Shown one piece after another: positions 7,024 through 49,722 of a DNA stretch of 64,000 nt (position 1 is the first letter of the stretch; every line of letters starts with the position of its first letter). The notes below the pieces were generated by a model. The model was not told the DNA's origin. It was given only the letters and a program-made list of their open reading frames with translations, and ran no database searches. The position numbers and the translations under genes were made by a program. Source of the stretch: an uncultured Candidatus Saccharibacteria bacterium (GTDB taxonomy: Bacteria; Patescibacteriota; CALEFQ01). The stretch is taken from the NCBI GenBank assembly GCA_965230955.1, contig OZ246404.1, positions 988,291 through 1,052,290 on the forward strand, written 5' to 3'.

Positions 7024-7062
7024 TTATAAAAAGTAAGCCGGTTAAACTACTGCCGTTGAAAA

Positions 7063-7446
7063 TTATTTATCGACTTTGTTATGGACTAGTTTCACCAAGT
7101 CCTTGAGCTGCCAATTAGCTTTGACGAGAAAATCATAAACTCCGCTAGCAGCGGCTTCCTGAACCGATTCCGCGTCGCTCAAATTGGTCAGAATCACCAC
7201 CGGAACGCGCCGGCCGAATTCTCCGCTGGCCCGAAGTTTTTGGAGCATCGTCAGGCCGTCCATTCGAGGCATGATAATATCAAGCAAAATCAAATCCGGC
7301 TGGATCTCCAAAGCCTTTTTTAATCCGAGCAAACCATCGGCGGCCTCGTGAATCCGAAAACCATCTGCCTCGAATTTTGTTTTCAGCGGGCCGATAATGG
7401 TTGCATCGTCCTCAATGATTAGAATCTGCTTTTGGTTTTTAGACAT
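7063..7446 (-). CDS. single-domain response regulator (receiver)
   Basis: ILIIEDD...LLDIIMPRMDG...ILTN; C-terminal ANWQLKDL shared with the two sibling receivers. Confidence 0.85.
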   Translation of the reverse strand: MSKNQKQILIIEDDATIIGPLKTKFEADGFRIHEAADGLLGLKKALEIQPDLILLDIIMPRMDGLTMLQKLRASGEFGRRVPVVILTNLSDAESVQEAAASGVYDFLVKANWQLKDLVKLVHNKVDK

Positions 7447-7576: not shown

Positions 7577-7987
7577 TCATCTGCCTTTTAGTTTCTTTTT
7601 TACCAGAGCCACTATTTGCCACAACTGCCAATTGGACTTGATCAGAAAATCGTACACTCCTTCGCGGCCAGCTTCATCGGCCCGGTCCGCGTCAGCCAAA
7701 TTGGTCAGCATAATGACCGGGATTTTCTTACCCCAGGATTGCGAGCGCATCTTCCGCAACATAGTCATCCCATCCATTTCAGGCATCACAATGTCCAGCA
7801 AGATCAAATCGGGCTTTTTCTGCTCGGCCAAAGACAAACCTTCTTGGCCATTGCGAGCCGTCCAGACCGTAAAACCCTCTTTGGTCAAACGCTCCTGTAA
7901 AATATTACGCACCGGGATTTCGTCTTCTACCACTAAAATTGATTTTCGCGAGACTGAGGTTGCGGCAGCTGGTGTTGTTTGCAACAT
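7577..7987 (-). CDS. single-domain response regulator (receiver)
   Basis: ILVVEDE...LLDIVMPEMDG...MLTN; paralogous to 4300..4707. Confidence 0.85.
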   Translation of the reverse strand: MLQTTPAAATSVSRKSILVVEDEIPVRNILQERLTKEGFTVWTARNGQEGLSLAEQKKPDLILLDIVMPEMDGMTMLRKMRSQSWGKKIPVIMLTNLADADRADEAGREGVYDFLIKSNWQLWQIVALVKKKLKGR

Positions 7988-7991
7988 AAAT

Positions 7992-10900
7992 TTAATATTT
8001 TTTATTTCGTAGTGAATTTAGAGGTTTGCCCTCTTCCGCCTTCATTCCACTCAGCGGCCAAGTGACAAAAAACGTCGATCCTTGATTTTCTTTGGACCGG
8101 AACCAGATCCGTCCGCCGGTACTTTCCATAATTTGCTTGACTATATATAGGCCCAAACCCTGTCCGCTGGGATCAATTTTTGCCGCGTTGTCGGCCCGCC
8201 AGAGTTTATTGAAAACATCAGACTGCTGATCGGCCGGGATTCCGCAACCGGTATCGGCAACACTGAGCAAAAACTCACTGCCCTGTTTACTCAAACTGAG
8301 AGTTATTTTACCCCGTGCCGGTGTATATTTTATGGCGTTGGAAAGCAAGTTTTGCAAAATATGACGATAAATATCTGGATCCAGCTGAATCAATTCCAGC
8401 TTCGGATCGTAGTTTGTAGCCAGTTGGAGTGATTTATCCTTCAAGGACGGCCAGAAATCTTTGATGATTTCTTTCGTCAGTTCGGCCGGACTTATTCTTT
8501 TTGGTTTCACCGACACAGAACGCAGCTCCAAACGCGAAACATCCAACAATGAATCGATCAAACCCACCATCTGTTGGCTCCCCCTGATAATTTCGTTTAA
8601 CTGCGCCTTTTGGGCCGCGGTCAAATTGCTGGTGTCCTCCGACAGCATTTCACTATACCAGTTGAGAGCGGTCAGAGGCGTGCGCAATTGGTGCGAAGCC
8701 AGAGAGATAAACTCAGTTTTGGCTCTATCCGCCCGCGCCCGCTCCGTGATATCGCGCACATTGCATTGGATCACTTTCCGGGTATGATTCTCGGTGTAGA
8801 CATTGCAGACAAATTCGGTATTTATCTGCCGGCCATCCCTGGTCAGTAAGGGCAAATTATCGTAGCGGACATAGCCCTTTTTTTGCAGAATCTGGAAAGT
8901 CTTTTGCGCCAACTTTTTATCCTGGAAAAATCCCAGTTCCCAAAGCCTTTTCCCGACAAAATGTTTCTGGGGGTAACCCAGGATTGATTCTAGGTAAGGA
9001 TTGGCCTCCGTGATCAGTCCGGTATCGGCATTGAGCAATAAAACCCCGTCCTGCGCCGTTTCAAATAGCCGGCGATAGCGATTTTCGGTGATTTCGAGAT
9101 TTGTCAGGGTCTCTTTGATTTTGGTGATATCTCGAACGATCGCCCAAAACCCGACGATTTTCCCGCGAGCATCGCGCAGGACCCAAGTTCGCAGAGAAAC
9201 CGGCACCCGCGTTTTGTCCCGGCGAATATATTCCTTTTCGTAATAATCTGAAAATCCGCGACGCGCCACTTGCTCGCGCAAGATACGGCTCTCAATTTGA
9301 TGCCATTTGGGCGGAGTTAAATCATTGTAAGTCAGGCGGCGCAGTTCCGAGAGAGAATAACCGGTCAAGTCGCAAAAAGCCTGATTGGCTTCCGTAATTC
9401 GACCGGTCAGATCCACTGAAGCGATGCCATCCGCGCTCGATTGGTAGAGACTGCGATATTTCTCTTCCGATTTTTTCAGGATTTCGGTCATCTGCCTCAA
9501 AGAAGTAATATCGCGCGCCACTACCGTCGCCCCGACGATCTTTCCCGTTTGATCAAGCTGGGCGCAAATTGAAGTGGAAAAAGATTTTTTGGTTGAACCA
9601 AAAGGGATCTCGTATTCAACATTTCGGCTTCCGCCCCGGCGCAAAACGTTTTGCAGAACCGGATTGATAATCCTCCGTAAAGCCGGCGGGAAAACCTGTC
9701 TGATGGTTTTGCCCAAAAACTTGTCGGGCGGGGCAAATAAGCTTTTGGGATCTTGGGCGTAATATTTTACAAATCGCCCACGGCGATCCAGCACGAAGAT
9801 CAAATCCGGTATCGACTTAATCAACGCCTGTAATTCTCTCTCCGAACGAGCCACGGAACGCTGATCTTCTTCGTGACGATCAGTTTCAATCCGCAAAGAG
9901 ATGTGATCGGCCACCGAGCCGGAAAAAGCCTGCTCCTCCGGCGTCCAGTAATGAGACGCCCCGACAGACTCACAACAGATGATTCCGATCACCCGACCGT
10001 GCAAACGGATCGGAACATCCATCATGGAAATAATTTTCAGCGGCTTGAGATATCCCGAGGTAAATTCTTTGGTCCGCCGGTCATTTTGGGCGTCATCGGC
10101 CGCAATTACTCGGTTGGCCGCCAAGTGACGAAAATAAACCGGGTAATGACTGGCCAGCAGCCGAGTCCCGTGTTCATGCTTTTTCCGGCTGGAGACATAC
10201 TGATCGGCGCAATAGATGGCCTTGTTGTATTCGGTATAAAACCAAAGGCCAACTCGCTCCACGCCCAGCGCAACGGAAAATTTTTCCAGAATCCGAGCCA
10301 GATCTTCATCAAGGTGAGCAGTAAAAAATATCCGACCGATTTCCAACAATGATTTTTGAAAAAAAATTATTTTTCGCTGGCGCGCACGTTCTTTTTCAGC
10401 CAACGAATGACTAGCTGTGATATTATGCATCGTCACCTGATGTCCGACCAATTTCCCGGCATCAATCACCGGTCGAGCCAGTAAACGATAATATTGCCGC
10501 GTCCCGCGCTTGGAAATGGTTTCTATTTCTACTCCCTGATTTTTTCGCAACGACAAATATGTCCGCAGATAATTAGTGGCCTTAGCCTTGGAATCAGGCG
10601 GTAAATTAGAACCCCGAGTGATATTATGGCCGATCAATTCTTGGCGCTGATAACCGCTCTCACGCACGGCCACCTGGTTCACATCCACAACATTGCCTTT
10701 TAGATCTAAAATCACCACTGAATCAACCAAACCCTCAAATAATTTACGGTATTTATTTTCGCTAATTTTCAACTTTCGGGTGATCTCCAATTGCGAAGTG
10801 ACATCCGTCCCGGAACTGATAATAGCGTATATATTCCCCCGCGCGTCAATCAAGGGAGTATTGTACCAGCGAATAATTTTTTCCCGCTTCTGCTTGGTCA

Positions 10901-11213
10901 ATATAGCATTTTCATAATGGCGGACTGATTTTATTCTGCCGGACATAATCTGTCTAAATACTCGCTTGACGGCGGGAATATTTTGCCGCAGCAAAAAATG
11001 ATCGAACCAATTTTTCCCGATCATCTCCGCCCGGGTATAACCGATCATTTTTCTCCCGGCTCGATTGACCAAGACAACCCGTCCGAAACGATCCAAGATT
11101 AAAATAAAAACAGCTGTCAGGTCGAAGCTGTTTTGCATACGTTTTAACTCGGCCGGAGAAAAAAATAACTGGGCATCAGCGGAAGACTTTGATTTTGATT
11201 TTACTTTTGGCAT
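7992..11213 (-). CDS. large multi-PAS/GAF sensor histidine kinase
   Basis: Several PAS modules plus a GAF-like segment; H-box [25 protein letters not shown]; HATPase_c ([27 protein letters not shown]). Confidence 0.85.
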   Translation of the reverse strand: [1073 protein letters not shown]

Positions 11214-18419: not shown

Positions 18420-19738
18420 AGACGCATCTGCATGTGGGATCGCACCGCCGCCCGATCATCCCACGGAATCCGTTTCCCCGCCGGCCCCATGATCACGGTC
18501 TCACAGCCTTTGCCGGTAATCAAAACAATATCGCCTGCTTGCGCTTCGCTGAGAGCTTTTTTTATCGCCTGTTCCCGGTCGAGGATCCGCCAGGCGTTTT
18601 TGTTTTCTTCTTTGCCCGCCTGAAGCGCGCCGGCAAAAACGTCGTCGATGATTTTCTGGGGCGATTCGTCATACGGATCTTCATTGGTCACAATCACCAG
18701 GTCGGCCAGTCGGCCGGCAGTCATTCCCAGTTTGGGGCGTTTTTGTTTGTCGCGTCCACCGCCTTGCGAGCCGAGAATGGACCAGAGTTTCCCTTTGACA
18801 AAAGGTTTGACCGCTTTTAAAGCATTGTCCAAGCCGTTGGGTGTATGGGCATAGTCAACGATCACCGTGAAAGGTTTCTTGATATCGATAATTTCCATCC
18901 GACCGGCCGGCGGTACAACCCGGGCCAGCGCGGTGGATATTGTTTCCAGATCAATCTTTTGGGTGTAGGCAACCGCAATAGCGGCCAGCGTGTTATAGAC
19001 ATTGAATCGGCCAACCAGCGGAGTGCGAATCTCTATCTTGTTCCTGGTATCGCCAGACAATGTCTGAAGTAAAAAAGTTGTTCCGTCGGGAGTGAGCCTG
19101 ATATCCGTCGCCCATAATTGCTGTTTCCCTTTTCCGGCCGGTTTATCTAGGGTATAGACCAAGTCATTATCCACCCGGAAAGACAAAAAATAATCCGCCG
19201 CCGGGTCATCCCCATTGATCACGGAAAATTTTTCATGGCCAATTTTGGCTGAGCCGGCGACGCTTTTAAATAATTTTCCTTTGGCTTTTTTGTAATTCTC
19301 AAATGAGCCATGCGATTCGATATGTTCCGGCGTCAGATTGGTGAAAACCGCCACGTCATAATTGATGCCTACCTGTCGGTGCTGTTTTATTCCTTCCGAA
19401 GTGGTTTCGATGATCGCGTAATCACACTTCGCCCGCACCAGCCGGCGCAAAAATTTCTGCAGTTTGAATCGACCCTGCATCCCCTGTTTGGTCGTGTTGG
19501 GCCATTCTTTTTCGCCAATTTTAAAATTAATCGTGGTCGACATGCCGACTTTGTGTCCGGCTTGCTCCAAAATTTTGGCCAGCAAGTTGCAAGTGGTCGT
19601 CTTGCCATCAGTGCCGGTGACACCAATCACCGTCAGCTGTTCCGAGGGGAAACCATAAACTAGCGTAGCCAAAGAAGCCAAGCACCAGTGGTAGGCGGAG
19701 AGCAGCCAGGGAGGGATAGATTTTTTGATGGAGGACAT
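18416..19738 (-). CDS. Mur ligase family protein (MurE-like UDP-N-acetylmuramoyl-tripeptide ligase)
   Basis: Mur ligase ATP-binding motif GVTGTDGKTTT; central and C-terminal Mur ligase domains; exact substrate is not determinable. Confidence 0.7.
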   Translation of the reverse strand: MSSIKKSIPPWLLSAYHWCLASLATLVYGFPSEQLTVIGVTGTDGKTTTCNLLAKILEQAGHKVGMSTTINFKIGEKEWPNTTKQGMQGRFKLQKFLRRLVRAKCDYAIIETTSEGIKQHRQVGINYDVAVFTNLTPEHIESHGSFENYKKAKGKLFKSVAGSAKIGHEKFSVINGDDPAADYFLSFRVDNDLVYTLDKPAGKGKQQLWATDIRLTPDGTTFLLQTLSGDTRNKIEIRTPLVGRFNVYNTLAAIAVAYTQKIDLETISTALARVVPPAGRMEIIDIKKPFTVIVDYAHTPNGLDNALKAVKPFVKGKLWSILGSQGGGRDKQKRPKLGMTAGRLADLVIVTNEDPYDESPQKIIDDVFAGALQAGKEENKNAWRILDREQAIKKALSEAQAGDIVLITGKGCETVIMGPAGKRIPWDDRAAVRSHMQMRL

Positions 19739-19746
19739 AGAGAAAT

Positions 19747-19823
19747 AAGTAACAGGTAACAGATAACAGGTAACAAATTGGAAGAAATATATTTATTAAC
19801 TGTTACTTGTTCCTTGTTACTTT
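19747..19823. repeat. (GTAACAR)n inverted-repeat element
   Basis: Arms of 7-bp tandem units GTAACAG/GTAACAA in inverted orientation around an AT-rich spacer; supplies the last codons (KVTRNK) and stop of the FemAB gene. Confidence 0.8.
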
Positions 19824-35150: not shown

Positions 35151-35185
35151 CCCGCGATTGAAAATTATCAATCGCGGGTTTTTAT
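35151..35185 (+). terminator. intrinsic terminator
   Basis: CCCGCGATTGAAAATTATCAATCGCGGG followed by a T-run. Confidence 0.6.
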
Positions 35186-35189
35186 TTTT

Positions 35190-35330
35190 CAAGTAACAGG
35201 TATCAGGTAACAAGTATCAGGGAACAAGTAACAAAAAACAACCATTACTCTTAATTTTGCTCATATGTAATGGCTGTTATTCCAATTTGTTCCCTGTTAC
35301 CTGATACCTGTTACTTGTTAATTGATCACC
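35190..35330. repeat. (GTAACAR)n/(GTATCAG)n inverted-repeat element
   Basis: ~45-bp arms around a 50-bp spacer carrying its own CCATTAC/GTAATGG hairpin; lies between convergent gene ends. Confidence 0.8.
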
Positions 35331-38300
35331 AGCCAGTTCACCGGCAAATCGACCGGAGCCGGTTTCCCGTCGTTAGTCGAAATCACAAATCCCTGCCCCG
35401 CCCGTTTCTCTTTTACTTTTACGCCGGTATTGGCGTCATTGGAACTTTCGATCGTCAGGAAAATTCGGCTCGCCGCCGTCACGGAATTATTCGGGACGAA
35501 AATTTCCGACTTGTTGCCGGGGAGTGTCACACTACCAATCGCTTTATTTTCGCCTTCTTGGATTTCGATATCGCCGGCCGTGACTTTCTGGAAGACGGCT
35601 TCACCGAGACTGTCGATATGCCAAGTGGCGTTATTCGACCAAAGTGAAGAAGCTTTGAGCGTGCCGGCGATATCAATATCTCCGCCAATGGTAACTTTAC
35701 CGGTAATACCCAGATCGCCGACGACTTGTCCGGCCTGGAGCGCACCACTTTGACCGGTGCCGGCAGTCAGAGTTTCCAATTGTTTTTTGATATTGGTAAT
35801 CTCTTCGTTCATATCCACGATGGCCGCTTCTTGTTCCTTGGCCGATTGAATCAGCGGAGTGACCAAATTTCCATAAGAAACCGTTTCGGGCCGGCCCTGG
35901 GCGTCATAGCTGACATACGCCGGATTGACTTGTTGGACTTCTTCGGCGATCAGACCTTCCTGCTTGGCGCCGGGATATTTTTTGTATTCAAATGATACCG
36001 GGCGTAATTGATACAGCCAGGCGATATTATTTATATTTTTCACATTGTTCTTGTAGCGCAGGGAAGAAGAAACATAACCGATTGTACCGGCATTATCGAC
36101 ATACAGATCGCGATTGGTCACGCCTACCGTATCGCTGTAAGTCCCGACGGAATTAATAGAATCTACCGTCGCCCCGGCATCGATGTATAGGCCGTATTCG
36201 ATATAGTCTTCCGGATCGAGCCAAGCGACATAATCCGTCCCGCTATTACTGGCTTCATCCACCGCGATCGAAAGTCCCATATCATTACCGGCCGCCGCCG
36301 CATTCACGTCAATCGAGACTCCGTAATCCGCTGCGGCTCCGCCGGTAGTGACCAAGAAAGTACCGCCCGTATTCCCCAACGCCGCGCCGGTCGCCAATCC
36401 CACAACGCCGATATTGTAGCCAAGGCTGGTTTGGTCTACCAACCCGCCGATACCATTGAAATGAACGGTGCTATTGTAAGTGATATTGCCCCCCTGTGTT
36501 CCCACAACGCCATAGAGATCACTATTGCTATAGGAATCCCCGGCGGTTCCCCCCACCCAGCCGTTAACACCGGCGATAAAATTCGTCCCGGAATCTGTCG
36601 TCACCGTCCCTTGATTATAGAAACCAACATTGAGGACATCCATCCCGGCAGTGACATCTTTTAGTGTATAGCCATCTTTGTTGCCCAAAATAAATTTACC
36701 GGCATGATTTTCGGCATAGACGCCATTATAATCAAGTGACGCATCTAATCCGAGATAACCGGACATACCCAAAGCTTCATCAGTATCATACGTAGTATGC
36801 ACTGAAGCCGTCAGCATAGCAGCTTTAACCCCGATAGTTGATTTACCATCATTAGCAGTCCCGGGATTTCCTTGTACGCCTATTTTGTTACCGGTCACTG
36901 CCGACAATACGTCGAAATAACCACCCCAATTTGATCCTGACCCACTTTCAGCTGATCCATAGATAGCAACATTTTGGTTAGTATTATTACTGGCCCGGCC
37001 ATACACACCGGTATTATATCCCGCCGCCCCGGCACCGTTGGAATTTCCGGTTATGCCGGCGATAGTATCGGCAGTCGCCAGAGTACTGGAATTGACCGCG
37101 TAAAGAGCGGACTGATAATCACCGGCATTATAAGTAGATAGAAAATCAAATTGTGCGCCGTATTGTAAATTACTCGCATGGTCATACAAATCCAGCTTAT
37201 AAGAAGGCGTCGTATCACCGATTCCAACATAGCCACCATCAAAGATACCGGCATAATTAGCCGTGCCACCCGAGGCTGTAGCATAAACAGCCGTATTACT
37301 GGTTCCGGCACCAGTAACTGAACTGTAAACACCATATTTGGTACCAGAAGCCCCCGTTTCAGAAATATTGATTCCCCGACCACTCGCACTGGCATCAGCA
37401 ATATTCATGCCATAGGCAGCATTGGCAGCAACACCAAATCCGCCGCGAGTAGCTCGTAAGTAGCCATCAGTGGTCTCGGCTGTGCCCACCCCTAGTCCAC
37501 CGGTCACATACGCATCACCCGAAACATATAATGGATAAGTGGCGTTATGAGCAATATTGACTCCAATATATCTAAAATCAGCGTCGCGGTCAGTATATAT
37601 AGTCGCCACGCCCCCCATGAACAAAGTATTAACGATATTCACATTACCACTGTCGAAATACCCGGCCCAGTTGGTCGTCCCGCCGGAAGCGGTGCCGTAG
37701 ATTCCATAATTTGTGGCATTCCCCGTGCCCGAACCATATACACCATAACTGGCGACAGAAGAGCGACTGGTCGCTCCATAAACACCATACTGGGTCGCCG
37801 CCCGATCAATTGAGGCATAAAGGCCATAATTAACTGTCGCCGAGCCCGGAACCGAAAGATAAATACCATAATTAGTCCCGGTCGCGCCGGTTTGTTCGAT
37901 ATTGATTCCGCGCCCGTCGGCACTGGCCTCGGCCACATTTATACCATAAGCGGCATTAGCGGCCACGCCAATCCCGGCTCGGCTCGCCCGCAAGTAACCA
38001 TCAGTAGCTTCAGCGGTGCCGACACCAAGCCCGCCGACAATAAAAGCATCGCCATCGGCATAAATTGATTGGGTCGTCCCGCCGATCACATATAGGCCGT
38101 ATTCGGCATTGGCTCCCGCCTGGAAAAATCCGGCATAATCGGTACCGGCGGCACCCGTGACATTAAAACGCCCGCCGTAATTGCTCCCCGTGGCGCCGGA
38201 AGACACACCGTAAACACCGTAGTTTTCCGTGCCGGTATTCGATGCTGTTCCGTAGACTCCATAATTATCCGTCGCAGCGGCTCCGGCGACGGAGAAATAT

Positions 38301-41300
38301 CCGCCGTAATTTGTACCGGCCGCTCCGGTGATCACTGACGCCAGGATGCCGTAATCATCTCCGCTACCGCCGGCATTGAGCTCGAAATATCCGCCGTAGT
38401 TGGCGTCAGTATTGCCGGCATTATCGATGTAGCCAAAAACACCGTAGTCGCTACTGTCGCCGGCCACCCCGATGATACTGAAATACCCGCCATAGTTACC
38501 TGAAACTGACGTGCCGGGATCGTTCAATAACGCATAGACGCCATAATCATTCAATGTTCCTCCGCCATCGACAGTAAATCGACCGCCCGAATTTGAATTC
38601 GCTCCTTGCGCCGCCCCCGCCACTCCGACCGATTCATCCCCGCCGTTTGGCAAAGCCACGTTTCCATAAATACCATAGGCGGTGAGACTTTGTCCGTTGG
38701 CGTTAAAAGTATTCGTCGCGTAGATCGAGTAATTGATAGAGGCTTCAAAAGCACCGGTACCACTGAAAGAATTATAGAAACCGTATTGACTGACTTCATG
38801 TGATCCGGAAACCGTTGTCGCCATATACATACCGCGCGCGCCATTGACCGTCGCTCCCAAGGTCGCTTCTCCGTGAAAAGCTTCGTTGTAATTGGTCGCC
38901 CCGCTCGCCGAAGCGTAAATAGCATAATTATTATAAGTATTGGTCGATCCGTCCGCCACGGAATAAATCCCATACGCCGTCGGGACAGCAGTGCCATCGG
39001 CACCGGTAGTTCTATTTCGAACATACAAACCAGTCGTCGTCGCCGTGGCTCCACTCGCGACACTTCCGCCGAAAGAATCGTAAATTCCGTATTGAGTCAA
39101 TCCGTTATTAATTCCATCGTTGGAAGTGGTACTGAAATAATAGCCTTGGACATCACCCAATGTCGCCGACAGCGCGGCGCTTCCGTGGAAAGCTTCATTA
39201 ATTCCGGCGGTACTCCCGGAAACAGTCGTGTGAATCCCGTAATTAGCCGTACCGTTGCCGCTGACTGTAAATTGCCCGCCATAATTATATACGGCATTCG
39301 CCACCACGGCGTTAACACCGTAATTAGTCGACTCACCGGCAACTGCGTTTGAAATATTTAAATACACGCCATTGTTCACCGTCGATGCGCCGGTCAAACT
39401 GATATAATTACCGTAAATTGTACCCGTCGCCCCGGTCATCGCCGTGTAGACGCCGTAACCGTTGTTCGACGCGTTGGCGATATTGAGCGAGCGTCCCGCC
39501 GTCGGCGTCGTGCCGATACTCATGATCCCGGAAGCGACCGAAACATTGTTAGAGTAAGTAGAATTTGGATAGAGGTAATCGCTCCCGACATCGTCCAGCC
39601 ACAAACCGGTTCCGCCGGAAGCCAGCGAGATCAAAGCGTCTATCACGCCTCGATCCGCCGCTCCAAACGCCGCTTCAAACGCCGCGGTGTTGTCGGTCAG
39701 GGCAAACGGAATCGCGGTCGTGATTAGCGCGTCTTGGAAATATATTTTGTCGGTGGAAAGTAATGTTATGTCATTCGTCGCTCCGGTGGAGCCGATAGTC
39801 AGTCCCGCCGTGGCGGTGATATTTGTCCCGACGCCGGTGATATTTTGTGAACCCATGGTCAAGGCGGCGTTGGTAATATCGAGACCGTTTTCCGCGTCAA
39901 CATTGCCGGTGAAATTCGCCGTGCCGTCAACGTACAATTCATCGCTCGTCGCTCCGCTGGCGATATAGACGCCGTATGTCGTACCGGAGAAATATCCGCC
40001 GTAATTTGTCGTCGCGCCGCTCGCCGTCGAATACAAACCGTAGTTCGTCGTCGACGCGCCCGTCGCTTCCAGGTACCCGCCATAATTGGCGTCACCTGTT
40101 CCGGTCACGCTCAGCACTCCGCCGTAATTAGTACCGGTGCCGGCATTATTGTTTCGAACTCTTATGCCCCAATCCACTCCCGCTGTACCGGTTCCAATAC
40201 TGACATCTAATCCGGTATTTGTATCACTTCCACTTCCGTCAGTCAGAAAAACAGTGGCTCCGTAATTATTACCACCGCCGGCTGTAGAAATACCCAAGAT
40301 AGCTCCATAATCATCGCCAGCATTACCGACCTGGACGCGTCCGTAAATTCCGACATCACTGCCGGCGCCGCCCGTCCCAACATCAAAGTAACCGGCATAA
40401 TTAGACGTAGCTCCAGTGGCCACTATATATGATCCGTAATTAGTGGTAGCTGCGCCGGACACGCTCACTTCCATGCCATAATTTGTCGTCGACGCGCCGG
40501 TGGCTGAAATATATTGACCATGAATTGTACCAGTCGCTCCGGTCATTGCCGTGTAGACGCCGTAACCGTTGTTCGACGCGTTGGCGATATTGAGCGAGCG
40601 TCCCGCCGTCGGCGTCGTGCCGATACTCATGATCCCGGAAGCGACCGAAACATTGTTAGAGTAAGTAGAATTTGGATAGAGGTAATCGCTCCCGACATCG
40701 TCCAGCCACAAACCGGTTCCGCCGGAAGCCAGCGAGATCAAAGCGTCTATCACGCCTCGATCCGCCGCTCCAAACGCCGCTTCAAACGCCGCGGTGTTGT
40801 CGGTCAGGGCAAACGGAATCGCGGTCGTGATTAGCGCGTCTTGGAAATATATTTTGTCGGTGGAAAGTAATGTTATGTCATTCGTCGCTCCGGTGGAGCC
40901 GATAGTCAGTCCCGCCGTGGCGGTGATATTTGTCCCGACGCCGGTGATATTTTGTGAACCCATGGTCAAGGCGGCGTTGGTAATATCGAGACCGTTTTCC
41001 GCGTCAACATTGCCGGTGAAATTCGCCGTGCCGTCAACGTACAATTCATCGCTCGTCGCTCCGCTGGCGATATAGACGCCGTATGTCGTACCGGAGAAAT
41101 ATCCGCCGTAATTTGTCGTCGCGCCGCTCGCCGTCGAATACAAACCGTAGTTCGTCGTCGACGCGCCACTGACTGAAATATAATTTCCATAAATAGTTCC
41201 GACCGTCCCGGTCATCGCCGTATAGACACCGTAACCGTTGTCGGCCGCGTTGGCGATATTGAGAGAGCGAGCACTGCTCGGCGCCACGCCGATTCCCACC

Positions 41301-42619
41301 ACCCCGCCGTTGGCATAAATATTTCCGCCGGTAAATTCCCAGCGGTCATCGGTGGTATAAGTGACTGATCCGGTCGCATCATTGGAGGCATACATATTGA
41401 GGATCGCATTGGTCGCCGCGCCGGCCGAGCCCTCACCGATCCGCACCGTGTTTAAATTTTCATCAACGGAAAAAGGCGCGACCAAACTATTCGCGCCGAT
41501 AGCAAAATCATCGGTCAGGGTATAGGGATGAATAATTATCCCCGTTTGCTCCCAGAGAAAAGGCTGATAAGAAATATCCGTGCCGTCGGACATCAAAACG
41601 GTATTGGCTAATCCGGCGCCGAGCCGGGTCGTGGTATTGGCGGCATTGCGGTAAATAATATCGCCGCGGGTTGTCATCGGATCCAGGAAACCGGAACTTT
41701 GGTTTTGCCAAGTGACATTGCCGCTGCCGTCGGTAATCAAAATCTGATTATTCGATCCCCGGGTGGTGGGAAAAGTATACGACGTCACACCAGTGCCAAA
41801 AGTGACTGCCCCAATCAAGTTTGTCGTATTGGAAACCGAAAGCGTGCTGGATAAATCAGTCGCGCCGGTCACGCCCAGGGTTGAAGACAAGGTAGCCGCT
41901 CCGGTCACGATGAGAGTGGAAGATAACGTGGTCGCGCCGGTAACGCCCAAAGTGGAGTCGAATGAAACCGCCCCGCTGACATGTAATCTCCCGTTCGGGA
42001 TCGAGACATCTTGCGATACCCCGGCTTTGGGATGTAAATTTCCGCTGCTATCTTCCCACATCCCGGCCGCCGGTATCGCCGTAGTATTTAAATAATTTAG
42101 CGCGTCGAGAATACCTCTTTCCGCCACCGGGAAAGAATCAATATTCGTATCAGTCAACGAGCCCGGCACGCCATAGACTCTTTCGGTATTCAGCGAATAA
42201 CCAACTCCGCCGATCCGACGCCGAGGCGACATTTCACCGTCGCCATTTACTTCGATCCCCAGATAATATACTCCGCTGTTGAAATCCAGATTGATCGCAT
42301 TGAGTGAGCCGAGATTAACATTGAAAACTCCGTCTTCCACCGTCACTTTGTTTCCGCCGATGTGATTCTCCGACCACATGGCTACCCCGCCTGAAGAAAC
42401 GTTGTAAATCCGAAAATTCATGTCATATACCCCATCGGTAACATTGGTACCGTCGGGATTGGTCAGCCGCCCCTGGAAATTAAACTCTTTAACATAGCCG
42501 GCGCGGACGTTTACCGGGGTATCAAAAAAGCCTACCAGTGAAAAAATCACCGCCAGAATAGCTAAAACTAGGGCTATAACGCCAAAAACTTGGCTTTTTG
42601 CCTTTTTTGTTTGAGCCAT
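35318..42619 (-). CDS. giant (2433 aa) membrane-anchored Thr/Ser/Gly/Asn/Tyr-rich surface protein with C-terminal tail-fibre-type intramolecular chaperone (peptidase S74) domain
   Basis: N-terminal signal-anchor helix; long NYGGYF/GATGT-type low-complexity beta repeats; C-terminus SSSLRYKNNVKNI...WLYQLRPVSFEYK...GLIAEEVQQVNPAYV matches the endosialidase/tail-fibre auto-cleaving chaperone domain. Confidence 0.7.
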   Translation of the reverse strand: MAQTKKAKSQVFGVIALVLAILAVIFSLVGFFDTPVNVRAGYVKEFNFQGRLTNPDGTNVTDGVYDMNFRIYNVSSGGVAMWSENHIGGNKVTVEDGVFNVNLGSLNAINLDFNSGVYYLGIEVNGDGEMSPRRRIGGVGYSLNTERVYGVPGSLTDTNIDSFPVAERGILDALNYLNTTAIPAAGMWEDSSGNLHPKAGVSQDVSIPNGRLHVSGAVSFDSTLGVTGATTLSSTLIVTGAATLSSTLGVTGATDLSSTLSVSNTTNLIGAVTFGTGVTSYTFPTTRGSNNQILITDGSGNVTWQNQSSGFLDPMTTRGDIIYRNAANTTTRLGAGLANTVLMSDGTDISYQPFLWEQTGIIIHPYTLTDDFAIGANSLVAPFSVDENLNTVRIGEGSAGAATNAILNMYASNDATGSVTYTTDDRWEFTGGNIYANGGVVGIGVAPSSARSLNIANAADNGYGVYTAMTGTVGTIYGNYISVSGASTTNYGLYSTASGATTNYGGYFSGTTYGVYIASGATSDELYVDGTANFTGNVDAENGLDITNAALTMGSQNITGVGTNITATAGLTIGSTGATNDITLLSTDKIYFQDALITTAIPFALTDNTAAFEAAFGAADRGVIDALISLASGGTGLWLDDVGSDYLYPNSTYSNNVSVASGIMSIGTTPTAGRSLNIANASNNGYGVYTAMTGATGTIHGQYISATGASTTNYGMEVSVSGAATTNYGSYIVATGATSNYAGYFDVGTGGAGSDVGIYGRVQVGNAGDDYGAILGISTAGGGNNYGATVFLTDGSGSDTNTGLDVSIGTGTAGVDWGIRVRNNNAGTGTNYGGVLSVTGTGDANYGGYLEATGASTTNYGLYSTASGATTNYGGYFSGTTYGVYIASGATSDELYVDGTANFTGNVDAENGLDITNAALTMGSQNITGVGTNITATAGLTIGSTGATNDITLLSTDKIYFQDALITTAIPFALTDNTAAFEAAFGAADRGVIDALISLASGGTGLWLDDVGSDYLYPNSTYSNNVSVASGIMSIGTTPTAGRSLNIANASNNGYGVYTAMTGATGTIYGNYISLTGASTVNNGVYLNISNAVAGESTNYGVNAVVANAVYNYGGQFTVSGNGTANYGIHTTVSGSTAGINEAFHGSAALSATLGDVQGYYFSTTSNDGINNGLTQYGIYDSFGGSVASGATATTTGLYVRNRTTGADGTAVPTAYGIYSVADGSTNTYNNYAIYASASGATNYNEAFHGEATLGATVNGARGMYMATTVSGSHEVSQYGFYNSFSGTGAFEASINYSIYATNTFNANGQSLTAYGIYGNVALPNGGDESVGVAGAAQGANSNSGGRFTVDGGGTLNDYGVYALLNDPGTSVSGNYGGYFSIIGVAGDSSDYGVFGYIDNAGNTDANYGGYFELNAGGSGDDYGILASVITGAAGTNYGGYFSVAGAAATDNYGVYGTASNTGTENYGVYGVSSGATGSNYGGRFNVTGAAGTDYAGFFQAGANAEYGLYVIGGTTQSIYADGDAFIVGGLGVGTAEATDGYLRASRAGIGVAANAAYGINVAEASADGRGINIEQTGATGTNYGIYLSVPGSATVNYGLYASIDRAATQYGVYGATSRSSVASYGVYGSGTGNATNYGIYGTASGGTTNWAGYFDSGNVNIVNTLFMGGVATIYTDRDADFRYIGVNIAHNATYPLYVSGDAYVTGGLGVGTAETTDGYLRATRGGFGVAANAAYGMNIADASASGRGINISETGASGTKYGVYSSVTGAGTSNTAVYATASGGTANYAGIFDGGYVGIGDTTPSYKLDLYDHASNLQYGAQFDFLSTYNAGDYQSALYAVNSSTLATADTIAGITGNSNGAGAAGYNTGVYGRASNNTNQNVAIYGSAESGSGSNWGGYFDVLSAVTGNKIGVQGNPGTANDGKSTIGVKAAMLTASVHTTYDTDEALGMSGYLGLDASLDYNGVYAENHAGKFILGNKDGYTLKDVTAGMDVLNVGFYNQGTVTTDSGTNFIAGVNGWVGGTAGDSYSNSDLYGVVGTQGGNITYNSTVHFNGIGGLVDQTSLGYNIGVVGLATGAALGNTGGTFLVTTGGAAADYGVSIDVNAAAAGNDMGLSIAVDEASNSGTDYVAWLDPEDYIEYGLYIDAGATVDSINSVGTYSDTVGVTNRDLYVDNAGTIGYVSSSLRYKNNVKNINNIAWLYQLRPVSFEYKKYPGAKQEGLIAEEVQQVNPAYVSYDAQGRPETVSYGNLVTPLIQSAKEQEAAIVDMNEEITNIKKQLETLTAGTGQSGALQAGQVVGDLGITGKVTIGGDIDIAGTLKASSLWSNNATWHIDSLGEAVFQKVTAGDIEIQEGENKAIGSVTLPGNKSEIFVPNNSVTAASRIFLTIESSNDANTGVKVKEKRAGQGFVISTNDGKPAPVDLPVNWLVIN
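39441..40060. repeat. perfect 620-bp direct repeat, copy 1 (inside the giant gene)
   Basis: Identical to 40548..41167 (offset 1107 bp); the tracked ORFs 39687..39968 and 40794..41075 are identical 93-aa products. Confidence 0.9.
40548..41167. repeat. perfect 620-bp direct repeat, copy 2
   Basis: See copy 1; flanks diverge at 39434/40541 and 40061/41168. Confidence 0.9.
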
Positions 42620-42711: not shown

Positions 42712-42724
42712 GGTGTGGACAACA

Positions 42725-42800
42725 ATCAAGTAACAAGTATCAGGTAACAAATTGGAAAAACAACAATTTTGTTACTTGTTCCCTGTTACTTGTTACCTGG
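42725..42800. repeat. (GTAACAR)n inverted-repeat element
   Basis: Between the 774-aa gene and the giant gene. Confidence 0.8.
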
Positions 42801-42801
42801 T

Positions 42802-45126
42802 TTAAGAATCCGGGCCGCTTAAATCCTCTAAATTACGGTCTTTCTTCTCCTCCACTTTTTTGATCGTTTCCTGCATACCGGGAGTTTCAGGAGGAGGCGG
42901 CGGCGCAGCGTTTGGGGATGTCGGGGCATAGGGTAGCCCGGTGGCAGGATCCAGCGGAACATTGAAACGCACTACCCCATCGCGCTTAACGTTGAAATCT
43001 TCACCGCGATAGCGATTGAATCCTTTTTCAATTTTGGAAGGGAAAGCATACTGCTCGCGATCAACCGTCAGACGATAAGTTTCCGGCCCGACCAAGAAAC
43101 CAAATCGTCCGTGGCGATCGGTCACTTGCGTTTCCAGTAAATCATTGTACCGTCGATTAAATAATCTGACGACCGCCAGTCCCACCGGTTTCCCGGTCTT
43201 GGCATCATAAACCATGCCCCAGGGCTTGCTCTTTTGACCCTGAACGACCCGTCCGAAAAATATAAATAAAACGATATGAAGAATAAGGAAGATCATAGTA
43301 TAAATTGACGGGCTGATCCAAAGACACACCGCCGCGATAACCGGGCCGAGTATGGCCAAGATCAAATTGACCCGACGATGCAAGTAACGCAAGACCACAT
43401 TGCGATTGGTCATCGCCATATCTTGCTTGAGCATCGGATCTAAAGGCACGCTGACGGTAATAACAGTTTTACCGGAAGCGATTTCAATCGGCTCGCCGAA
43501 ATAAAGATCGTCATAGCCGGCATCGTGAGTTTTGCCCCGCATTTTTAGCGAGGGGAAGGCGAAGTTCGGCTTGGTGACCGTGATGCGGAATTTTCCTTCC
43601 TTGGTCAAAAAGGTAAATCGTCCCTGGCGATCAGTCACGCGAGTGCTGACCAATTTTCCCGTCTGCGCATCAAGCAAGCGTACCAGCGCCAGATCAACCG
43701 GAACTTTGGAAAGCGCATTATACACCACGCCCCAACAACGGCGGCGCCGTCCGGCAAAGAAGAGAAAAGGCTCGGTAAAAAGATACCAGAAAGACAGCAG
43801 GGCGGTACCGACATTGGCCATACCAGCCGCGGTCAGCAAGTTGGCGATCGCCAAAGCGGTCAGACCGGGAACGACAACCGACTGATTGATCAATTGAGTA
43901 ACCGGATTTTCTCTGAATAATTCGATATCCCGGAGCAAATCTCGCAGGGCGGTAATTATCAGTTCCGGAATCGTCAGGGGCGGATTCACCGGCGGGACAT
44001 CAATTCCCGGAATGGTGATCGTGGCCGGCAACGATAAATCGGTCGAAATATTATTACAGTTTCGCGCCATCACGTTATAAACATAAGTCTGGCCGGCCAC
44101 CAAACCATAGTGCGCCCGGCTTAACGCCGTCGACCAGTAAGAAGCGCCGCTGACCGATCCGTCGGGCTGTAAAAAAGCGCCGTTGACCAAAACCGCAAAT
44201 TCCGTCCCGGCCGGATTGCCGTTGGCCGCGATGGAAATTGTCGCCGTATATGTTCCGTCATCGGCGGCGACATAAGAGACACCGGGCTGACCCGGGACGT
44301 TCGCCAACGTACACCGCGTCAAGGTCGCCTCGGCGTTTTCTACGCCGCAAATATTTCGCTGTTTGGAATGCCAGGTATAAGCGGTGTTAAAATTTAATCC
44401 CGTGTCGCGCCAGCTGTTATCCCCGCTCTGCCAACCGGATTCGTTTACAACGCCGCGCCGGAAAAAATATCCGCTCAGCTCTATGCTATGCCGCGGAAAA
44501 ATCGGGACGGAGAGATCCATGTAATCCACTCCCGGACTGGCAAAAAGTCCCCGCGTTCCGACCAGAGTACAGCCGGAAGCAAAGCCGGAAGGGATACTGT
44601 TTCCGAAAGGATTAAAAGCCAAAACTTGTTCGGTGTATTTTTGGTTTTCATCCAGTCCGGTTTGGGTAATGGAGCTGATATTGGCTTGATTGACCACCTC
44701 AACGACGGTAGCCGAATCATCTTCCAGCAGGAAACCTTCTTCATCGGCCGACCGATCGGTAAAATTCCATTTTATAGCAGACGCGGACAAGCCTTCCGGT
44801 ATCCCGATTTCCGGCTTATTCGGCGGTTTGAAATAGAGATAACCGGCTTTGACGATATAATTGGGCGAGGTAAATTTTCCCGTGACAAAATAATTCAGCG
44901 CCTCATCGACCGAAAAATCTCCGGAATCAAGCTGACCGCCCGATTCATCGATATCTTCAACTTTCATCCGGTAATTCGGACTGGAATAACCGACGGCACC
45001 GGCTCGATCATTACTCCAAACAAAACCCAGGCTGACCGAAAGCAGGCAAATTAAAAAACCAATGCGCCACCAGCGGGCGAATGGATTTTTAATTCGCACC
45101 AGATTGTTTTTTTTATTTACCAACAC
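42802..45126 (-). CDS. membrane protein with two carboxypeptidase-regulatory-like (prealbumin-fold) domains and a Pro-rich C-terminus
   Basis: GTG start; N-terminal signal/TM; large extracytoplasmic domain; two repeats of GxVYxAxTGKPVxLAxVRL...TQVTDRxGRFxFL...YxxTVxKxxYAFPS, each following TM helices; PPPPPETP tail. Confidence 0.5.
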   Translation of the reverse strand: MLVNKKNNLVRIKNPFARWWRIGFLICLLSVSLGFVWSNDRAGAVGYSSPNYRMKVEDIDESGGQLDSGDFSVDEALNYFVTGKFTSPNYIVKAGYLYFKPPNKPEIGIPEGLSASAIKWNFTDRSADEEGFLLEDDSATVVEVVNQANISSITQTGLDENQKYTEQVLAFNPFGNSIPSGFASGCTLVGTRGLFASPGVDYMDLSVPIFPRHSIELSGYFFRRGVVNESGWQSGDNSWRDTGLNFNTAYTWHSKQRNICGVENAEATLTRCTLANVPGQPGVSYVAADDGTYTATISIAANGNPAGTEFAVLVNGAFLQPDGSVSGASYWSTALSRAHYGLVAGQTYVYNVMARNCNNISTDLSLPATITIPGIDVPPVNPPLTIPELIITALRDLLRDIELFRENPVTQLINQSVVVPGLTALAIANLLTAAGMANVGTALLSFWYLFTEPFLFFAGRRRRCWGVVYNALSKVPVDLALVRLLDAQTGKLVSTRVTDRQGRFTFLTKEGKFRITVTKPNFAFPSLKMRGKTHDAGYDDLYFGEPIEIASGKTVITVSVPLDPMLKQDMAMTNRNVVLRYLHRRVNLILAILGPVIAAVCLWISPSIYTMIFLILHIVLFIFFGRVVQGQKSKPWGMVYDAKTGKPVGLAVVRLFNRRYNDLLETQVTDRHGRFGFLVGPETYRLTVDREQYAFPSKIEKGFNRYRGEDFNVKRDGVVRFNVPLDPATGLPYAPTSPNAAPPPPPETPGMQETIKKVEEKKDRNLEDLSGPDS

Positions 45127-45272: not shown

Positions 45273-45710
45273 TTAATATCTTATCTCTATCTCTCTCGTA
45301 TCGGCGTCGATAAACTTGAATCGCACCCAAATGCATTTTTCCGGCAAAATATCCGCGACCCGCTCGGCCCACTCAATGAACACGACCCCGGACGGATCCG
45401 CCAGCACTTCTTCCCACCCCAGCGCCAATATTTCGGCCGAACTTTTCACGCGATAAACATCAAGATGATAAATATTTTTGACTTTTGACTTTTGACTTTT
45501 GACTTTATATACCGCTTCCACCAAAAATGTCGGACTGGTTATTGCCTGCTCCACTCCCAATCCTCGCGCCAAACCTTTGATAAAAGTTGTTTTGCCGCCG
45601 CCCAAATCACCGCTCAAACACACGACTTCTCCGCCTTTTAGCCGCCGGGACAGCCATTCCCCCGCGGCTTCGGTTTCTCCGGCATTTTTAGTAATCAGCT
45701 TTTTGATCAT
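45273..45710 (-). CDS. tsaE: tRNA threonylcarbamoyladenosine biosynthesis ATPase TsaE
   Basis: P-loop GDLGGGKTTFIKGLARGLG; YHLDVYR motif; contains a repeat-encoded KVKSQKSKVKN insertion. Confidence 0.8.
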   Translation of the reverse strand: MIKKLITKNAGETEAAGEWLSRRLKGGEVVCLSGDLGGGKTTFIKGLARGLGVEQAITSPTFLVEAVYKVKSQKSKVKNIYHLDVYRVKSSAEILALGWEEVLADPSGVVFIEWAERVADILPEKCIWVRFKFIDADTREIEIRY

Positions 45711-46562: not shown

Positions 46563-46571
46563 AAATAAAAA

Positions 46572-46646
46572 TTAACAGGTAACAAGTAACAGGTAACAAA
46601 TTTGGAAGTATCCTTTTTGTTACCTGTTACCTGTTCCTTGTAACTT
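46572..46646. repeat. (GTAACAR)n inverted-repeat element
   Basis: In the divergent uppP / DHH-gene intergenic region. Confidence 0.8.
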
Positions 46647-49613: not shown

Positions 49614-49722
49614 GAGCAAGTAACAGGTAATAGCTAACAGGTAACAAATAAGGAAATAAATAAGAACAAGCTCGAAAAGGGCTTGTTTTTGTTACTTGTT
49701 CCCTGTTACTTGTTATTTGTCA
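49614..49722. repeat. (GTAACAR)n inverted-repeat element with nested terminator
   Basis: Between convergent pilB and the TPR gene; supplies the C-terminal codons (NNK) and stop of the TPR gene. Confidence 0.8.
49664..49691 (+). terminator. intrinsic terminator of pilB, nested in the spacer of a GTAACAR inverted-repeat element
   Basis: AACAAGCTCGAAAAGGGCTTGTT followed by TTTT. Confidence 0.6.

What the first reader, a model, noticed from the sequence alone, without database searches (positions are those of the whole stretch)
39441..41167. Perfect 620-bp tandem duplication (period 1107 bp) inside the giant surface-protein gene
Positions 39441-40060 and 40548-41167 are identical base for base. 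The flanks diverge immediately at 39434/40541 and 40061/41168. At protein level this is a 206-aa identical block within a ~369-aa repeat unit present in about 2.5 copies. Perfect identity over 620 bp inside a longer divergent repeat implies very recent duplication or gene conversion. It is a substrate for RecA-mediated copy-number variation of the fibre length, akin to contingency loci. It is also a classic site for assembly collapse or expansion, so the real copy number may differ.
Basis: seen in the sequence. Interest (0 to 1): 0.6.

Follow-up and report, generated by a model that had tools for sequence, protein, structure and literature searches.

The report
Recent module duplication in giant fibre gene
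A 620-base stretch really is present twice, letter for letter, inside a 7.3-kb gene for a giant cell-surface fibre of an uncultured small-genome bacterium; it is a very recent copy of one building block of a gene that evolves by shuffling such blocks, which is an ordinary way for surface proteins to change.

Summary
Window 39441-40060 and 40548-41167 are identical over 620 nt, offset 1107 nt (3 x 369, in frame). Both lie in one gene (35318-42619, minus strand, 2433 aa).

It is not a tandem 369-aa unit in 2.5 copies. The 487-nt spacer has no counterpart after copy 2 beyond generic repeat similarity (about 35% aa). The third partial copy is a roughly 130-nt border motif lying 669 nt away.

One border is abrupt and sits on a 14-nt motif found only three times in the window. 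The other grades into 75% identity, with synonymous-only changes in the first 9 codons. This marks a recombination tract, not identity kept by selection.

Syntenic orthologues carry this module once, at the same nucleotide divergence as housekeeping genes. The second copy is therefore recent and lineage-specific.

An independent k=31 assembly of run SRR10083296 breaks exactly 30 nt inside each outer end of the repeat, so the repeat has two contexts in raw reads. Copy number (2 or more) is untested.

The gene has a membrane anchor, a weakly MAT-like N-domain, an S74 chaperone domain and a mosaic middle that varies even between close relatives. Verdict: real and ordinary in kind. Copy-number variation is plausible but not shown.

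The parts
35318..42619 (-). Giant fibre gene, 2433 aa. Gly/Ala/Thr/Ser/Asn-rich, no Cys, no LPXTG, 26 N[YWF][GA] motifs.
   Evidence: ORF list; translation; composition and motifs. The exact protein is on record from NCBI on a 1,136,458-bp contig.
40548..41167 (-). Copy 1 of the exact 620-nt repeat (aa 485-690). Its upstream context (M0 motif plus NYG units) matches that of the single module in orthologue P0001.
39441..40060 (-). Copy 2 of the exact 620-nt repeat (aa 854-1059).
40061..40547 (-). 487-nt spacer between the copies (aa 691-853): a diverged tail of the border motif, then an NYG/DYG repeat run. It has no specific counterpart after copy 2 or in the orthologues (at most 0.5 identity in 60-aa windows).
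39380..39440 (-). Graded flank of copy 2, matching 40487-40547 after copy 1. Ungapped identity is 75%. The first 9 codons (AMTGATGTI) differ only synonymously. This is older paralogous sequence, so the tract border here is a recombination breakpoint inside the 'M' border motif.
41137..41269 (-). M0, the third and older copy of the border motif (SLNIANA..NGYGVYTAMTG..GTIYGNYIS). It is about 80% identical in nucleotides to the M parts at 40476-40600 and 39361-39493 and lies just upstream (gene sense) of copy 1.
41154..41167 (-). 14-nt motif GGCGCGTCGACGAC (codes GASTT) at the 5' edge (gene sense) of copy 1. The same motif is at 40047-40060 (5' edge of copy 2) and at 40485-40498 (start of the spacer's NYG run). 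These are the only three occurrences in the window.
42524..42589 (-). N-terminal hydrophobic segment (aa 11-32), a signal anchor or signal peptide.
   Evidence: The strongest hydropathy peak of the protein. Conserved in the orthologues.
42305..42493 (-). Conserved N-terminal domain core (aa 43-105) with a weak match to NCBIfam Bdello_MAT_N.
   Evidence: 27 bits against a cut-off of 60; all 6 orthologues hit; conservation 53-85%
35912..36067 (-). Peptidase_S74 intramolecular chaperone/autoprotease domain (aa 2185-2236), starting at S2185-SLRY-K2190.
   Evidence: 32-36 bits, cut-off 22; motif
35369..35548 (-). Conserved C-terminal K1-lyase_C-like domain (aa 2358-2417), 78-83% identical in the orthologues.

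Best explanation
The repeat is the trace of one very recent, lineage-specific, non-reciprocal recombination event. That event copied one roughly 215-aa shaft module of a giant modular surface-fibre gene to a second place 487 nt further along the same gene.

Both junctions lie in short motifs that recur at module borders. One is a 14-nt GGCGCGTCGACGAC (GASTT) motif on the gene-5' side. The other is the roughly 130-nt 'M' motif on the gene-3' side, where the tract ends inside older paralogous sequence. The event most likely added a module rather than overwriting one, making the fibre 369 aa longer.

The gene belongs to a family of membrane-anchored, probably trimeric, phage-fibre-like proteins. 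The family has conserved ends, and its middle is reshuffled module by module between related genomes. The new 620-nt direct repeat is in frame (offset 1107 = 3 x 369). It is therefore a substrate for homologous unequal crossing-over that would add or remove 369-aa units.

What is shown and what is inferred:
- Shown: the identity, the border pattern, single copy in the orthologues, two contexts in raw reads, and the mosaic nature of the family.
- Inferred: the mechanism of copying, that a module was added rather than replaced, trimeric fibre structure, and future copy-number change.
For: 1. There are 0 differences in 620 nt, including all synonymous sites, against 15 in 61 nt in the adjoining flank (Fisher p about 7e-15 with 13/61). 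The 95% upper bound on divergence between the copies is 0.48%.
2. The first 9 flank codons differ only synonymously. That flank is therefore older sequence under purifying selection, and the border is a breakpoint.
3. The other border coincides with a 14-nt motif present only three times in the window, at both copy starts and at the start of the spacer's repeat run.
4. Positional orthologues sit in the same gene neighbourhood (BacA-TsaE-CarboxypepD_reg-giant gene-TPR-PolA-HolA). They carry this module once: P0001 78% aa, P0002 69%, P0004 49%. Both of our copies map to the same single segment in them.
5. The module's nucleotide identity to the orthologues (73.5-77.8%) equals that of housekeeping genes (72-77%). 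The module is old and vertically inherited, and only the second copy is new.
6. Logan k=31 contigs of run SRR10083296 are 100% identical to the window. They stop at 41138 and start at 39470, exactly k-1 = 30 nt inside the two outer ends. I predicted the second from the first. Logan uses k=31 with every 31-mer unique per accession (PMC12424806).
7. Module duplication and turnover recur in the family. L008 has a 622-nt internal repeat at 82.6% bounded by NYG/NWAGYF motifs. L036 has a 309-nt x 3.5 tandem array at 89%. L002 and L008 are 96.8% identical in the flanks, yet their giant genes are 2454 and 3026 aa with rearranged middles.
8. RuvA is encoded in the window, so at least part of the homologous-recombination machinery is present.
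Against: - No reads could be mapped. Copy number and population heterogeneity are untested.
- The spacer and repeat contigs of the k=31 assembly could not be fetched, so the block-spacer-block cycle was not seen directly there.
- The nearest orthologues are distant (housekeeping proteins 65-87% aa identical). 'Single copy in relatives' therefore dates the event only loosely. It cannot exclude an older two-module state later homogenised.
- No outgroup shows the empty target site, so insertion cannot be separated from replacement.
- The fibre structure is inferred from domains only. An AlphaFold2 monomer model of the module failed (pLDDT 38.5).
Confidence: 0.78

Rival explanations
1. There was an old pair of paralogous modules at these two positions, and one has been overwritten by the other. 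This would be pure gene conversion (concerted evolution), with no change in fibre length.
For: - The gene-3' border lies inside older homologous sequence at 75% identity with synonymous-only changes, as expected for the end of a conversion tract.
- The protein contains other weakly related modules, e.g. aa 279-467 at 29% to the block.
- P0004 has a long DYG/NYG run directly before its block, like spacer plus copy 2 here.
Against: - The gene-5' flank has no homology beyond the 14-nt motif (44% nt identity). A homology-driven conversion would have had almost nothing to start from on that side.
- Three orthologues have only one module of this type.
- The other internal paralogues are about 25-40% aa identical, too far apart for ordinary homologous conversion.
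Confidence: 0.2
2. It is an assembly artefact: a single-copy block traversed twice, or a chimera of two strains or two loci.
For: - A 620-nt exact repeat exceeds short-read and k-mer lengths and is a classic site of mis-resolution.
- The spacer and block contigs of the independent assembly could not be inspected.
- The read technology behind the window is unknown.
Against: - Both outer ends are branch points in an independent k=31 graph of SRR10083296, at exactly k-1 nt. The block therefore has two left and two right neighbours in reads.
- The spacer can be flanked by the block on both sides only in a molecule with at least two copies.
- The record is a 1.14-Mb contig from NCBI.
- The structure keeps a 2433-aa reading frame intact.
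Confidence: 0.07
3. It is a simple head-to-tail tandem duplication of an 1107-nt unit, whose other 487 nt later diverged.
For: The offset of 1107 nt is in frame. The flank on one side keeps some similarity for about 120 nt.
Against: - The 487-nt spacer against the 487 nt after copy 2 is at background nucleotide identity and 35-37% aa, like any NYG region.
- Zero changes in 620 nt cannot coexist with saturation next door under one duplication date.
Confidence: 0.02
4. It is part of a programmed diversification system, such as a diversity-generating retroelement template/variable pair, an invertible or cassette system, or a contingency locus.
For: The gene is a hypervariable surface protein. Small-genome uncultured bacteria are known (from my own knowledge) to be rich in retroelement-based diversification.
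Against: - The copies are identical, with no adenine-specific differences, and both are coding parts of the same gene.
- No reverse transcriptase, invertase or integrase was found among the window's ORFs of 150 aa or more that were scanned.
- There is no simple-sequence tract in the gene.
Confidence: 0.02

Closest known systems
Trimeric adhesin fibres with repeated stalk/neck modules that vary in number between strains (e.g. Bartonella BadA/Vomp, Moraxella UspA; from my own knowledge, not tested here)
   Same: A long surface fibre built from repeated modules. Intragenic recombination between similar modules changes the number and order of modules in frame. Relatives differ mainly in the middle of the gene.
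   Different: No autotransporter anchor domain was found. The protein is anchored by an N-terminal hydrophobic segment and ends in S74 and K1-lyase_C-like domains of phage-fibre type.
Gram-positive surface proteins with identical long tandem repeats (alpha C/Rib of group B streptococci, SasG/Aap; from my own knowledge)
   Same: DNA-identical repeats of hundreds of bases sit inside a surface-protein gene. They are in frame and are known substrates for repeat gain and loss.
   Different: Those are contiguous arrays of many identical units and carry LPXTG anchors. Here there are only two copies, separated by a 487-nt unique spacer, and no LPXTG.
Bdellovibrio MAT (mosaic adhesive trimer) fibre superfamily (PMC10769870)
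   Same: A signal or anchor segment is followed by a conserved beta-rich N-domain. The fibres are long and phage-like, and end either in an S74 chaperone-protease or in another tip. The architecture is mosaic, and the bacteria attach to other bacteria. All six N-termini tested hit NCBIfam Bdello_MAT_N. S74 is present with an S-x4-K motif.
   Different: The N-domain match is far below the curated cut-off (27 against 60 bits). This protein is 2-3 times longer and has NYG-type repeats. It has a further conserved domain after S74. It occurs as one hypervariable gene at a fixed chromosomal locus rather than as a 21-member paralogue set. The host is an uncultured small-genome bacterium, and relatives of the N-domain are in Saccharibacteria MAGs.
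Phage tail fibres and tailspikes with C-terminal intramolecular chaperone domains
   Same: Peptidase_S74 domain. PHROG hits to a long tail fibre distal subunit. Orthologues carry a Peptidase_G2-type domain instead (weak precomputed Pfam hit for P0002). Modules are exchanged in mosaic fashion.
   Different: The gene sits in a conserved chromosomal neighbourhood of housekeeping genes in several genomes, with no phage genes around it.

Membership tests
Recent intragenic segmental duplication / gene-conversion tract | Copies identical at synonymous as well as non-synonymous sites | tested here: met
   0 differences in 620 nt (206 codons)
Recent intragenic segmental duplication / gene-conversion tract | Sharp step in divergence at the tract border | tested here: met
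   0/620 against 15/61 mismatches in the next 61 nt. The other border drops to 44% identity at once.
Recent intragenic segmental duplication / gene-conversion tract | Single copy in outgroup orthologues | tested here: met
   P0001, P0002 and P0004 have one module each. L001-L003 are syntenic. The outgroups are distant, however.
Recent intragenic segmental duplication / gene-conversion tract | Both copies present in one molecule (spanning reads, twofold depth) | not testable with these tools
   Only indirect evidence: k=31 contigs of SRR10083296 end exactly 30 nt inside both outer ends.
Head-to-tail tandem repeat array | Similarity extends over the whole period, with copies contiguous | tested here: not met
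   Only 620 (683 at 98%) of 1107 nt are shared. Spacer against the post-copy-2 region is 35-37% aa identical.
Contingency locus (simple-sequence phase variation) | Short-unit repeat tract whose length changes switch the reading frame or a promoter | tested here: not met
   Tandem Repeats Finder shows no such tract in the gene. The offset of 1107 is in frame.
Diversity-generating retroelement target | Template/variable repeat pair differing at adenines, with a reverse transcriptase nearby | tested here: not met
   The copies are identical. No reverse transcriptase among the scanned ORFs of the window.
MAT fibre superfamily (Bdellovibrio) | Conserved N-terminal domain of about 130 aa after the signal peptide (NCBIfam NF053851) | tested here: inconclusive
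   The hit appears in all 6 orthologous N-termini (best E 4.5e-8). It scores 22-27 bits for this protein against a curated cut-off of 60, and covers only profile positions 14-74 of 162.
MAT fibre superfamily (Bdellovibrio) | C-terminal S74 chaperone-protease with a Ser/Lys motif, or an alternative tip | tested here: met
   PF13884 scores 32-36 bits (cut-off 22). S2185-SLRY-K2190 is present. Orthologues P0001, P0002, P0007 and the L008 protein show no similarity to this S74 stretch; P0002 carries a weak precomputed Pfam Peptidase_G2 hit instead.
MAT fibre superfamily (Bdellovibrio) | Intertwined trimeric beta-helix/prism fibre | not testable with these tools
   The monomer AlphaFold2 model of the module has pLDDT 38.5. 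No PDB relative by sequence.
LPXTG-anchored repeat proteins | C-terminal LPXTG sorting signal | tested here: not met
   No LP.TG in the protein; the C-terminus is ...WLVIN.

The most novel reading that the evidence does not exclude
The giant gene is the attachment fibre of an episymbiotic small-genome bacterium. It is remotely related to the prey-recognition MAT fibres of Bdellovibrio. It sits at a fixed chromosomal locus, and its shaft and tip modules are duplicated, swapped and lost so fast that genomes 97% identical in the flanks differ by hundreds of residues. On this reading the perfect 620-nt repeat is a snapshot of that process in action, and fibre length or module content sets which hosts can be reached.
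Probability: 0.3. Interest if true: 0.6.

Novelty: new member of a known kind. Interest (0 to 1): 0.3.

Why it matters
The repeat itself is a routine signature of how repetitive surface-protein genes evolve. Its practical value is as a flag: the true module number of this gene needs long reads.

The setting is of more interest. This is a single, syntenic, hypervariable fibre gene with phage-type chaperone domains and a faint link to Bdellovibrio MAT fibres, in a lineage whose N-domain relatives are Saccharibacteria. If such fibres mediate attachment to host bacteria, module duplication like this one would be a concrete mechanism for changing reach or specificity. The locus would then be a good marker for strain-level host adaptation.

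Tried and rejected
- **Word-index protein search.** The block gave no hit. The N-terminus gave only three weak hits, although closer relatives exist. The full HMMER search found them.
- **Genome collection scan with aa 380-1100.** No relative found.
- **JGI metagenome scan with a block alignment.** One weak locus only, so no same-species genomes were available to compare copy number.
- **Look-up of the full protein's contig.** Not on record in that index, though the protein is in the collection from NCBI.
The exact-sequence table returned nothing for the spacer and block fragments, nor for the two control fragments (the 494-aa and 1383-aa partial products) that are on record as called genes in Logan contigs, so it could not answer the question.
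- **Predicted one-copy variant (2064 aa).** Not in the collection. This is uninformative, since the cluster has one member.
- **AlphaFold2 of the module with a 3-sequence alignment.** pLDDT 38.5, unusable, so no fold search was run.
- **Pfam and PDB searches of the module.** Nothing.
- **Rfam on the window.** Only a tRNA.
- **Paper search for SRR10083296.** Nothing.
- **Considered and rejected:** identity maintained by selection (synonymous sites are identical too), a retroelement or invertase system, and a contingency locus. See the rival explanations.
Full report
**1. The observation**

Window 39441-40060 and 40548-41167 are identical base for base, and this is the maximal exact match. blastn extends the pair to 39380-40060 / 40487-41167 at 98.1% over 683 nt. 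No other long near-perfect repeat exists in the 64-kb window. Apart from one 32-nt site, these are the only sequences repeated at 31 nt or more. In-frame self-identity elsewhere in the gene averages 28% (sd 0.7%), so chance is excluded.

Both copies lie in one ORF, 35318-42619 on the minus strand, 2433 aa. The offset of 1107 nt equals 369 codons.

**2. Anatomy, in gene orientation**

- The DNA-identical tract covers aa 485-690 and 854-1059.
- The protein is identical for 215 aa (485-699 and 854-1068). The next nine codons (AMTGATGTI) differ at three synonymous sites only.
- Beyond that, ungapped identity on this gene-3' side is 75% over the first 61 nt and 47% over the next 60, then background.
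- On the gene-5' side identity drops at once to 44%. That edge falls exactly on a 14-nt motif, GGCGCGTCGACGAC (coding GASTT). The motif occurs only three times in the window: at the start of each copy and at 40485-40498, where the spacer's repeat run begins.
- The graded side belongs to a roughly 130-nt border motif that I call M (SLNIANA..NGYGVYTAMTG..GTIYGNYIS). It is present three times, at 41137-41269, 40476-40600 and 39361-39493, and the oldest copy is about 80% identical to the other two.
- The layout is therefore M0 - block - M1 - spacer - block - M2.

The 163-aa spacer (691-853) and the 163 aa after copy 2 (1060-1222) are only 35-37% identical. That is no better than either is to other NYG-repeat regions of the same protein. 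This is therefore not a head-to-tail duplication of a 369-aa unit, and the '2.5 copies' are not there. The extra partial copy is M0, spaced 669 nt away.

**3. Age and nature of the event**

Zero differences in 620 nt, synonymous sites included, gives a 95% upper bound of 0.48% on divergence between the copies. The adjoining flank has 15 mismatches in 61 nt (Fisher p about 7e-15). Identity maintained by selection on the protein is excluded, because silent sites are identical too. A single old duplication is excluded by the step in divergence.

The tract is thus the product of a recent non-reciprocal recombination. One end lies inside older paralogous sequence (M). The other lies at a short motif shared by repeat units.

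**4. Is it real?**

I could not map reads, but an independent check was possible. The neighbouring 774-aa protein is on record in a Logan contig of run SRR10083296. That contig is 100% identical to window 45505-41138. It ends 30 nt inside copy 1, whose outer edge is 41167.

Logan assembles at k=31 with every 31-mer unique per accession (PMC12424806). A contig that meets a repeated node should therefore stop k-1 = 30 nt into it. From this I predicted that the contig on the far side would start at 39470, giving a partial product aa 1051-2433. Exactly that product is on record, on a 21-kb contig, and the 14,153 nt of it that were fetched are 100% identical to window 39470-25318. The same contigs occur in 4 and 3 runs respectively.

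Both outer ends of the repeat are therefore branch points in the read graph, so the block has two left and two right neighbours in raw data. A spacer with the block on both sides requires a molecule with at least two copies.

The window's gene product is also on record from NCBI on a 1,136,458-bp contig. I put the chance of an artefact at about 7%.

The number of units (2, or more) remains untested. Variants in unit number create no new k-mers, so they are invisible in k-mer graphs.

**5. Relatives**

A full HMMER search of 1.84 billion representatives found only 19 proteins with a block-like segment. The best are P0001 (78% aa over the block), P0002 (69%) and P0004 (49%). Each carries the module once.

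The contigs of P0001, P0007 and P0002 have the same gene neighbourhood as the window: BacA, TsaE, a CarboxypepD_reg protein, the giant gene, a TPR protein, PolA, HolA. Their housekeeping proteins are 65-87% identical to ours. They are positional orthologues from related but distinct lineages.

The block's nucleotide identity to them (73.5% and 77.8%) matches that of the housekeeping genes (72-77%). The module is therefore old and vertically inherited, and only its second copy is new.

A sliding comparison shows a mosaic gene:
- aa 1-240 and 2281-2433 are conserved in all orthologues.
- aa 331-450 are shared only with P0007 and L008.
- The block is shared with P0001, P0002 and (more weakly) P0004.
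- aa 1771-1890 are shared only with L008.
- The S74 region is shared only with P0004.
- The spacer is shared with none.

Both of our copies map to the same single segment of P0001 and P0002.

**6. Module turnover is a family habit**

- L008 (3026 aa) has its own 622-nt internal repeat at 82.6%. It is a different 207-aa module, again bounded by NYG/NWAGYF motifs.
- L036 has a 309-nt x 3.5 tandem array at 89%.
- L002 and L008 are 96.8% identical over the 3.1 kb that span the upstream gene and the first 1.8 kb of the giant gene, and 90% identical at its 3' end. Their middles are rearranged and the proteins are 2454 and 3026 aa.

This is comparative evidence that length and module content of this gene change quickly. 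No variant of the particular repeat studied here was found: the predicted one-copy protein is absent and the 90% cluster has one member.

**7. What the gene is**

- It has one strong hydrophobic segment at aa 11-32, no Cys and no LPXTG.
- Its conserved N-domain hits NCBIfam Bdello_MAT_N in all six orthologues tested, but far below the curated cut-off (27 against 60 bits).
- It has 26 N[YWF][GA] motifs.
- It has a Peptidase_S74 intramolecular chaperone domain above Pfam's threshold, starting at S2185-SLRY-K2190.
- It has a conserved K1-lyase_C-like end.
- PHROGs gives tail-fibre-type hits at the C-terminal part.
- The orthologues P0001, P0002, P0007 and the L008 protein show no similarity to our S74 region. 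For P0002 the precomputed Pfam record lists a weak Peptidase_G2 hit instead.

S74 domains are trimerisation chaperones of phage fibres and of the Bdellovibrio MAT fibres (PMC10769870). A trimeric surface fibre is therefore the likely product, but that is inference. The AlphaFold2 monomer model of the module was unusable (pLDDT 38.5). Neither Pfam nor the PDB has a relative of the module.

The N-domain has 28 relatives in the species-representative genome set. Nearly all are Candidatus Saccharibacteria / Saccharimonadales MAGs at 33-52% identity, and the closest is an unnamed MAG at 85%. Together with the 1.14-Mb contig, this suggests a small-genome, possibly episymbiotic bacterium. The taxonomy was not established.

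**8. Mechanism and consequences**

The best-supported reading is that one module was copied to a second site by recombination at border motifs. A one-ended homologous invasion in M, resolved at the 14-nt motif, would produce exactly this pattern of one graded and one abrupt border. Template switching between the motifs during replication would do so as well.

Addition of a module is favoured over overwriting an older one, for two reasons. The relatives have one copy, and the gene-5' flank offers almost no homology for conversion. The empty site was not seen, however, so I give replacement 20%.

RuvA is encoded in the window. No reverse transcriptase or site-specific recombinase was found in the scanned ORFs.

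A 620-nt perfect direct repeat 487 nt apart is, from general knowledge of bacterial recombination, an efficient substrate for unequal crossing-over. Any such event here would add or remove 369 aa in frame. This is plausible and untested. It is length variation, not the on/off switching of contingency loci, and no simple-sequence tract is present.

**9. Verdict**

The description as a tandem 369-aa unit in 2.5 copies is wrong. The contingency-locus analogy does not hold.

In kind it is a familiar phenomenon, a fresh intragenic module duplication in a repetitive surface-fibre gene, so interest is low to moderate. The hypervariable, syntenic, MAT-like fibre locus that hosts it is the more interesting lead.

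Noticed in passing
window 35185-35330, 42715-42805, 46565-46645, 49625-49715, 19736-19823: A family of intergenic elements built from a 7/14-nt unit (TCAGGTAACAAGTA: 13 matches with up to 2 mismatches, 0.13 expected). The units are arranged as inverted arrays that fold into long hairpins (z-scores -4.6 to -10.6). Two of them bracket the giant gene, one just upstream of its start and one just downstream of its stop. They may be terminators or a REP-like element; there is no Rfam match.
   Followed up: partly
L002 10001-17365 versus L008 1258-10338: Two related genomes are 96.8% identical over 3.1 kb spanning the upstream gene and the start of the giant gene, and 90% identical at its 3' end. Their middles are rearranged and the proteins are 2454 and 3026 aa, so the locus is hypervariable between close relatives.
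   Followed up: partly
window 35912-36067; P0001, P0002, P0007 C-terminal regions: The chaperone module before the conserved C-terminal domain is swapped between orthologues. Peptidase_S74 is present here and in P0004. P0001, P0002, P0007 and the L008 protein have an unrelated segment at that position; for P0002 the precomputed Pfam record lists a weak Peptidase_G2 hit.
   Followed up: partly
window 42305-42493 (aa 43-105); loci L008-L035: The conserved N-terminal domain gives weak but consistent hits to the Bdellovibrio MAT fibre N-domain model. It has relatives in 28 species-representative genomes, nearly all Saccharibacteria/Saccharimonadales MAGs, mostly in proteins of 500-1000 aa.
   Followed up: partly
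L008 ORF positions 4408-5029 and 6742-7363; L036 4739-5833: Other family members have their own internal module repeats: a 622-nt pair at 82.6% in L008 and a 309-nt x 3.5 tandem array at 89% in L036.
   Followed up: partly
window 4345-5442 versus 7625-8723: Two neighbouring PAS-domain histidine kinase genes (4723-7023 and 7992-11213, minus strand) share a 1.1-kb stretch at 65% nucleotide identity, an older paralogous duplication. The window is unusually rich in sensor kinases for a 1.1-Mb genome.
   Followed up: no
window about 45481-45506: A short 7-nt tandem repeat (ACTTTTG, about 3.7 copies) lies in the TsaE/BacA region, and the Logan contig L006 ends there.
   Followed up: no
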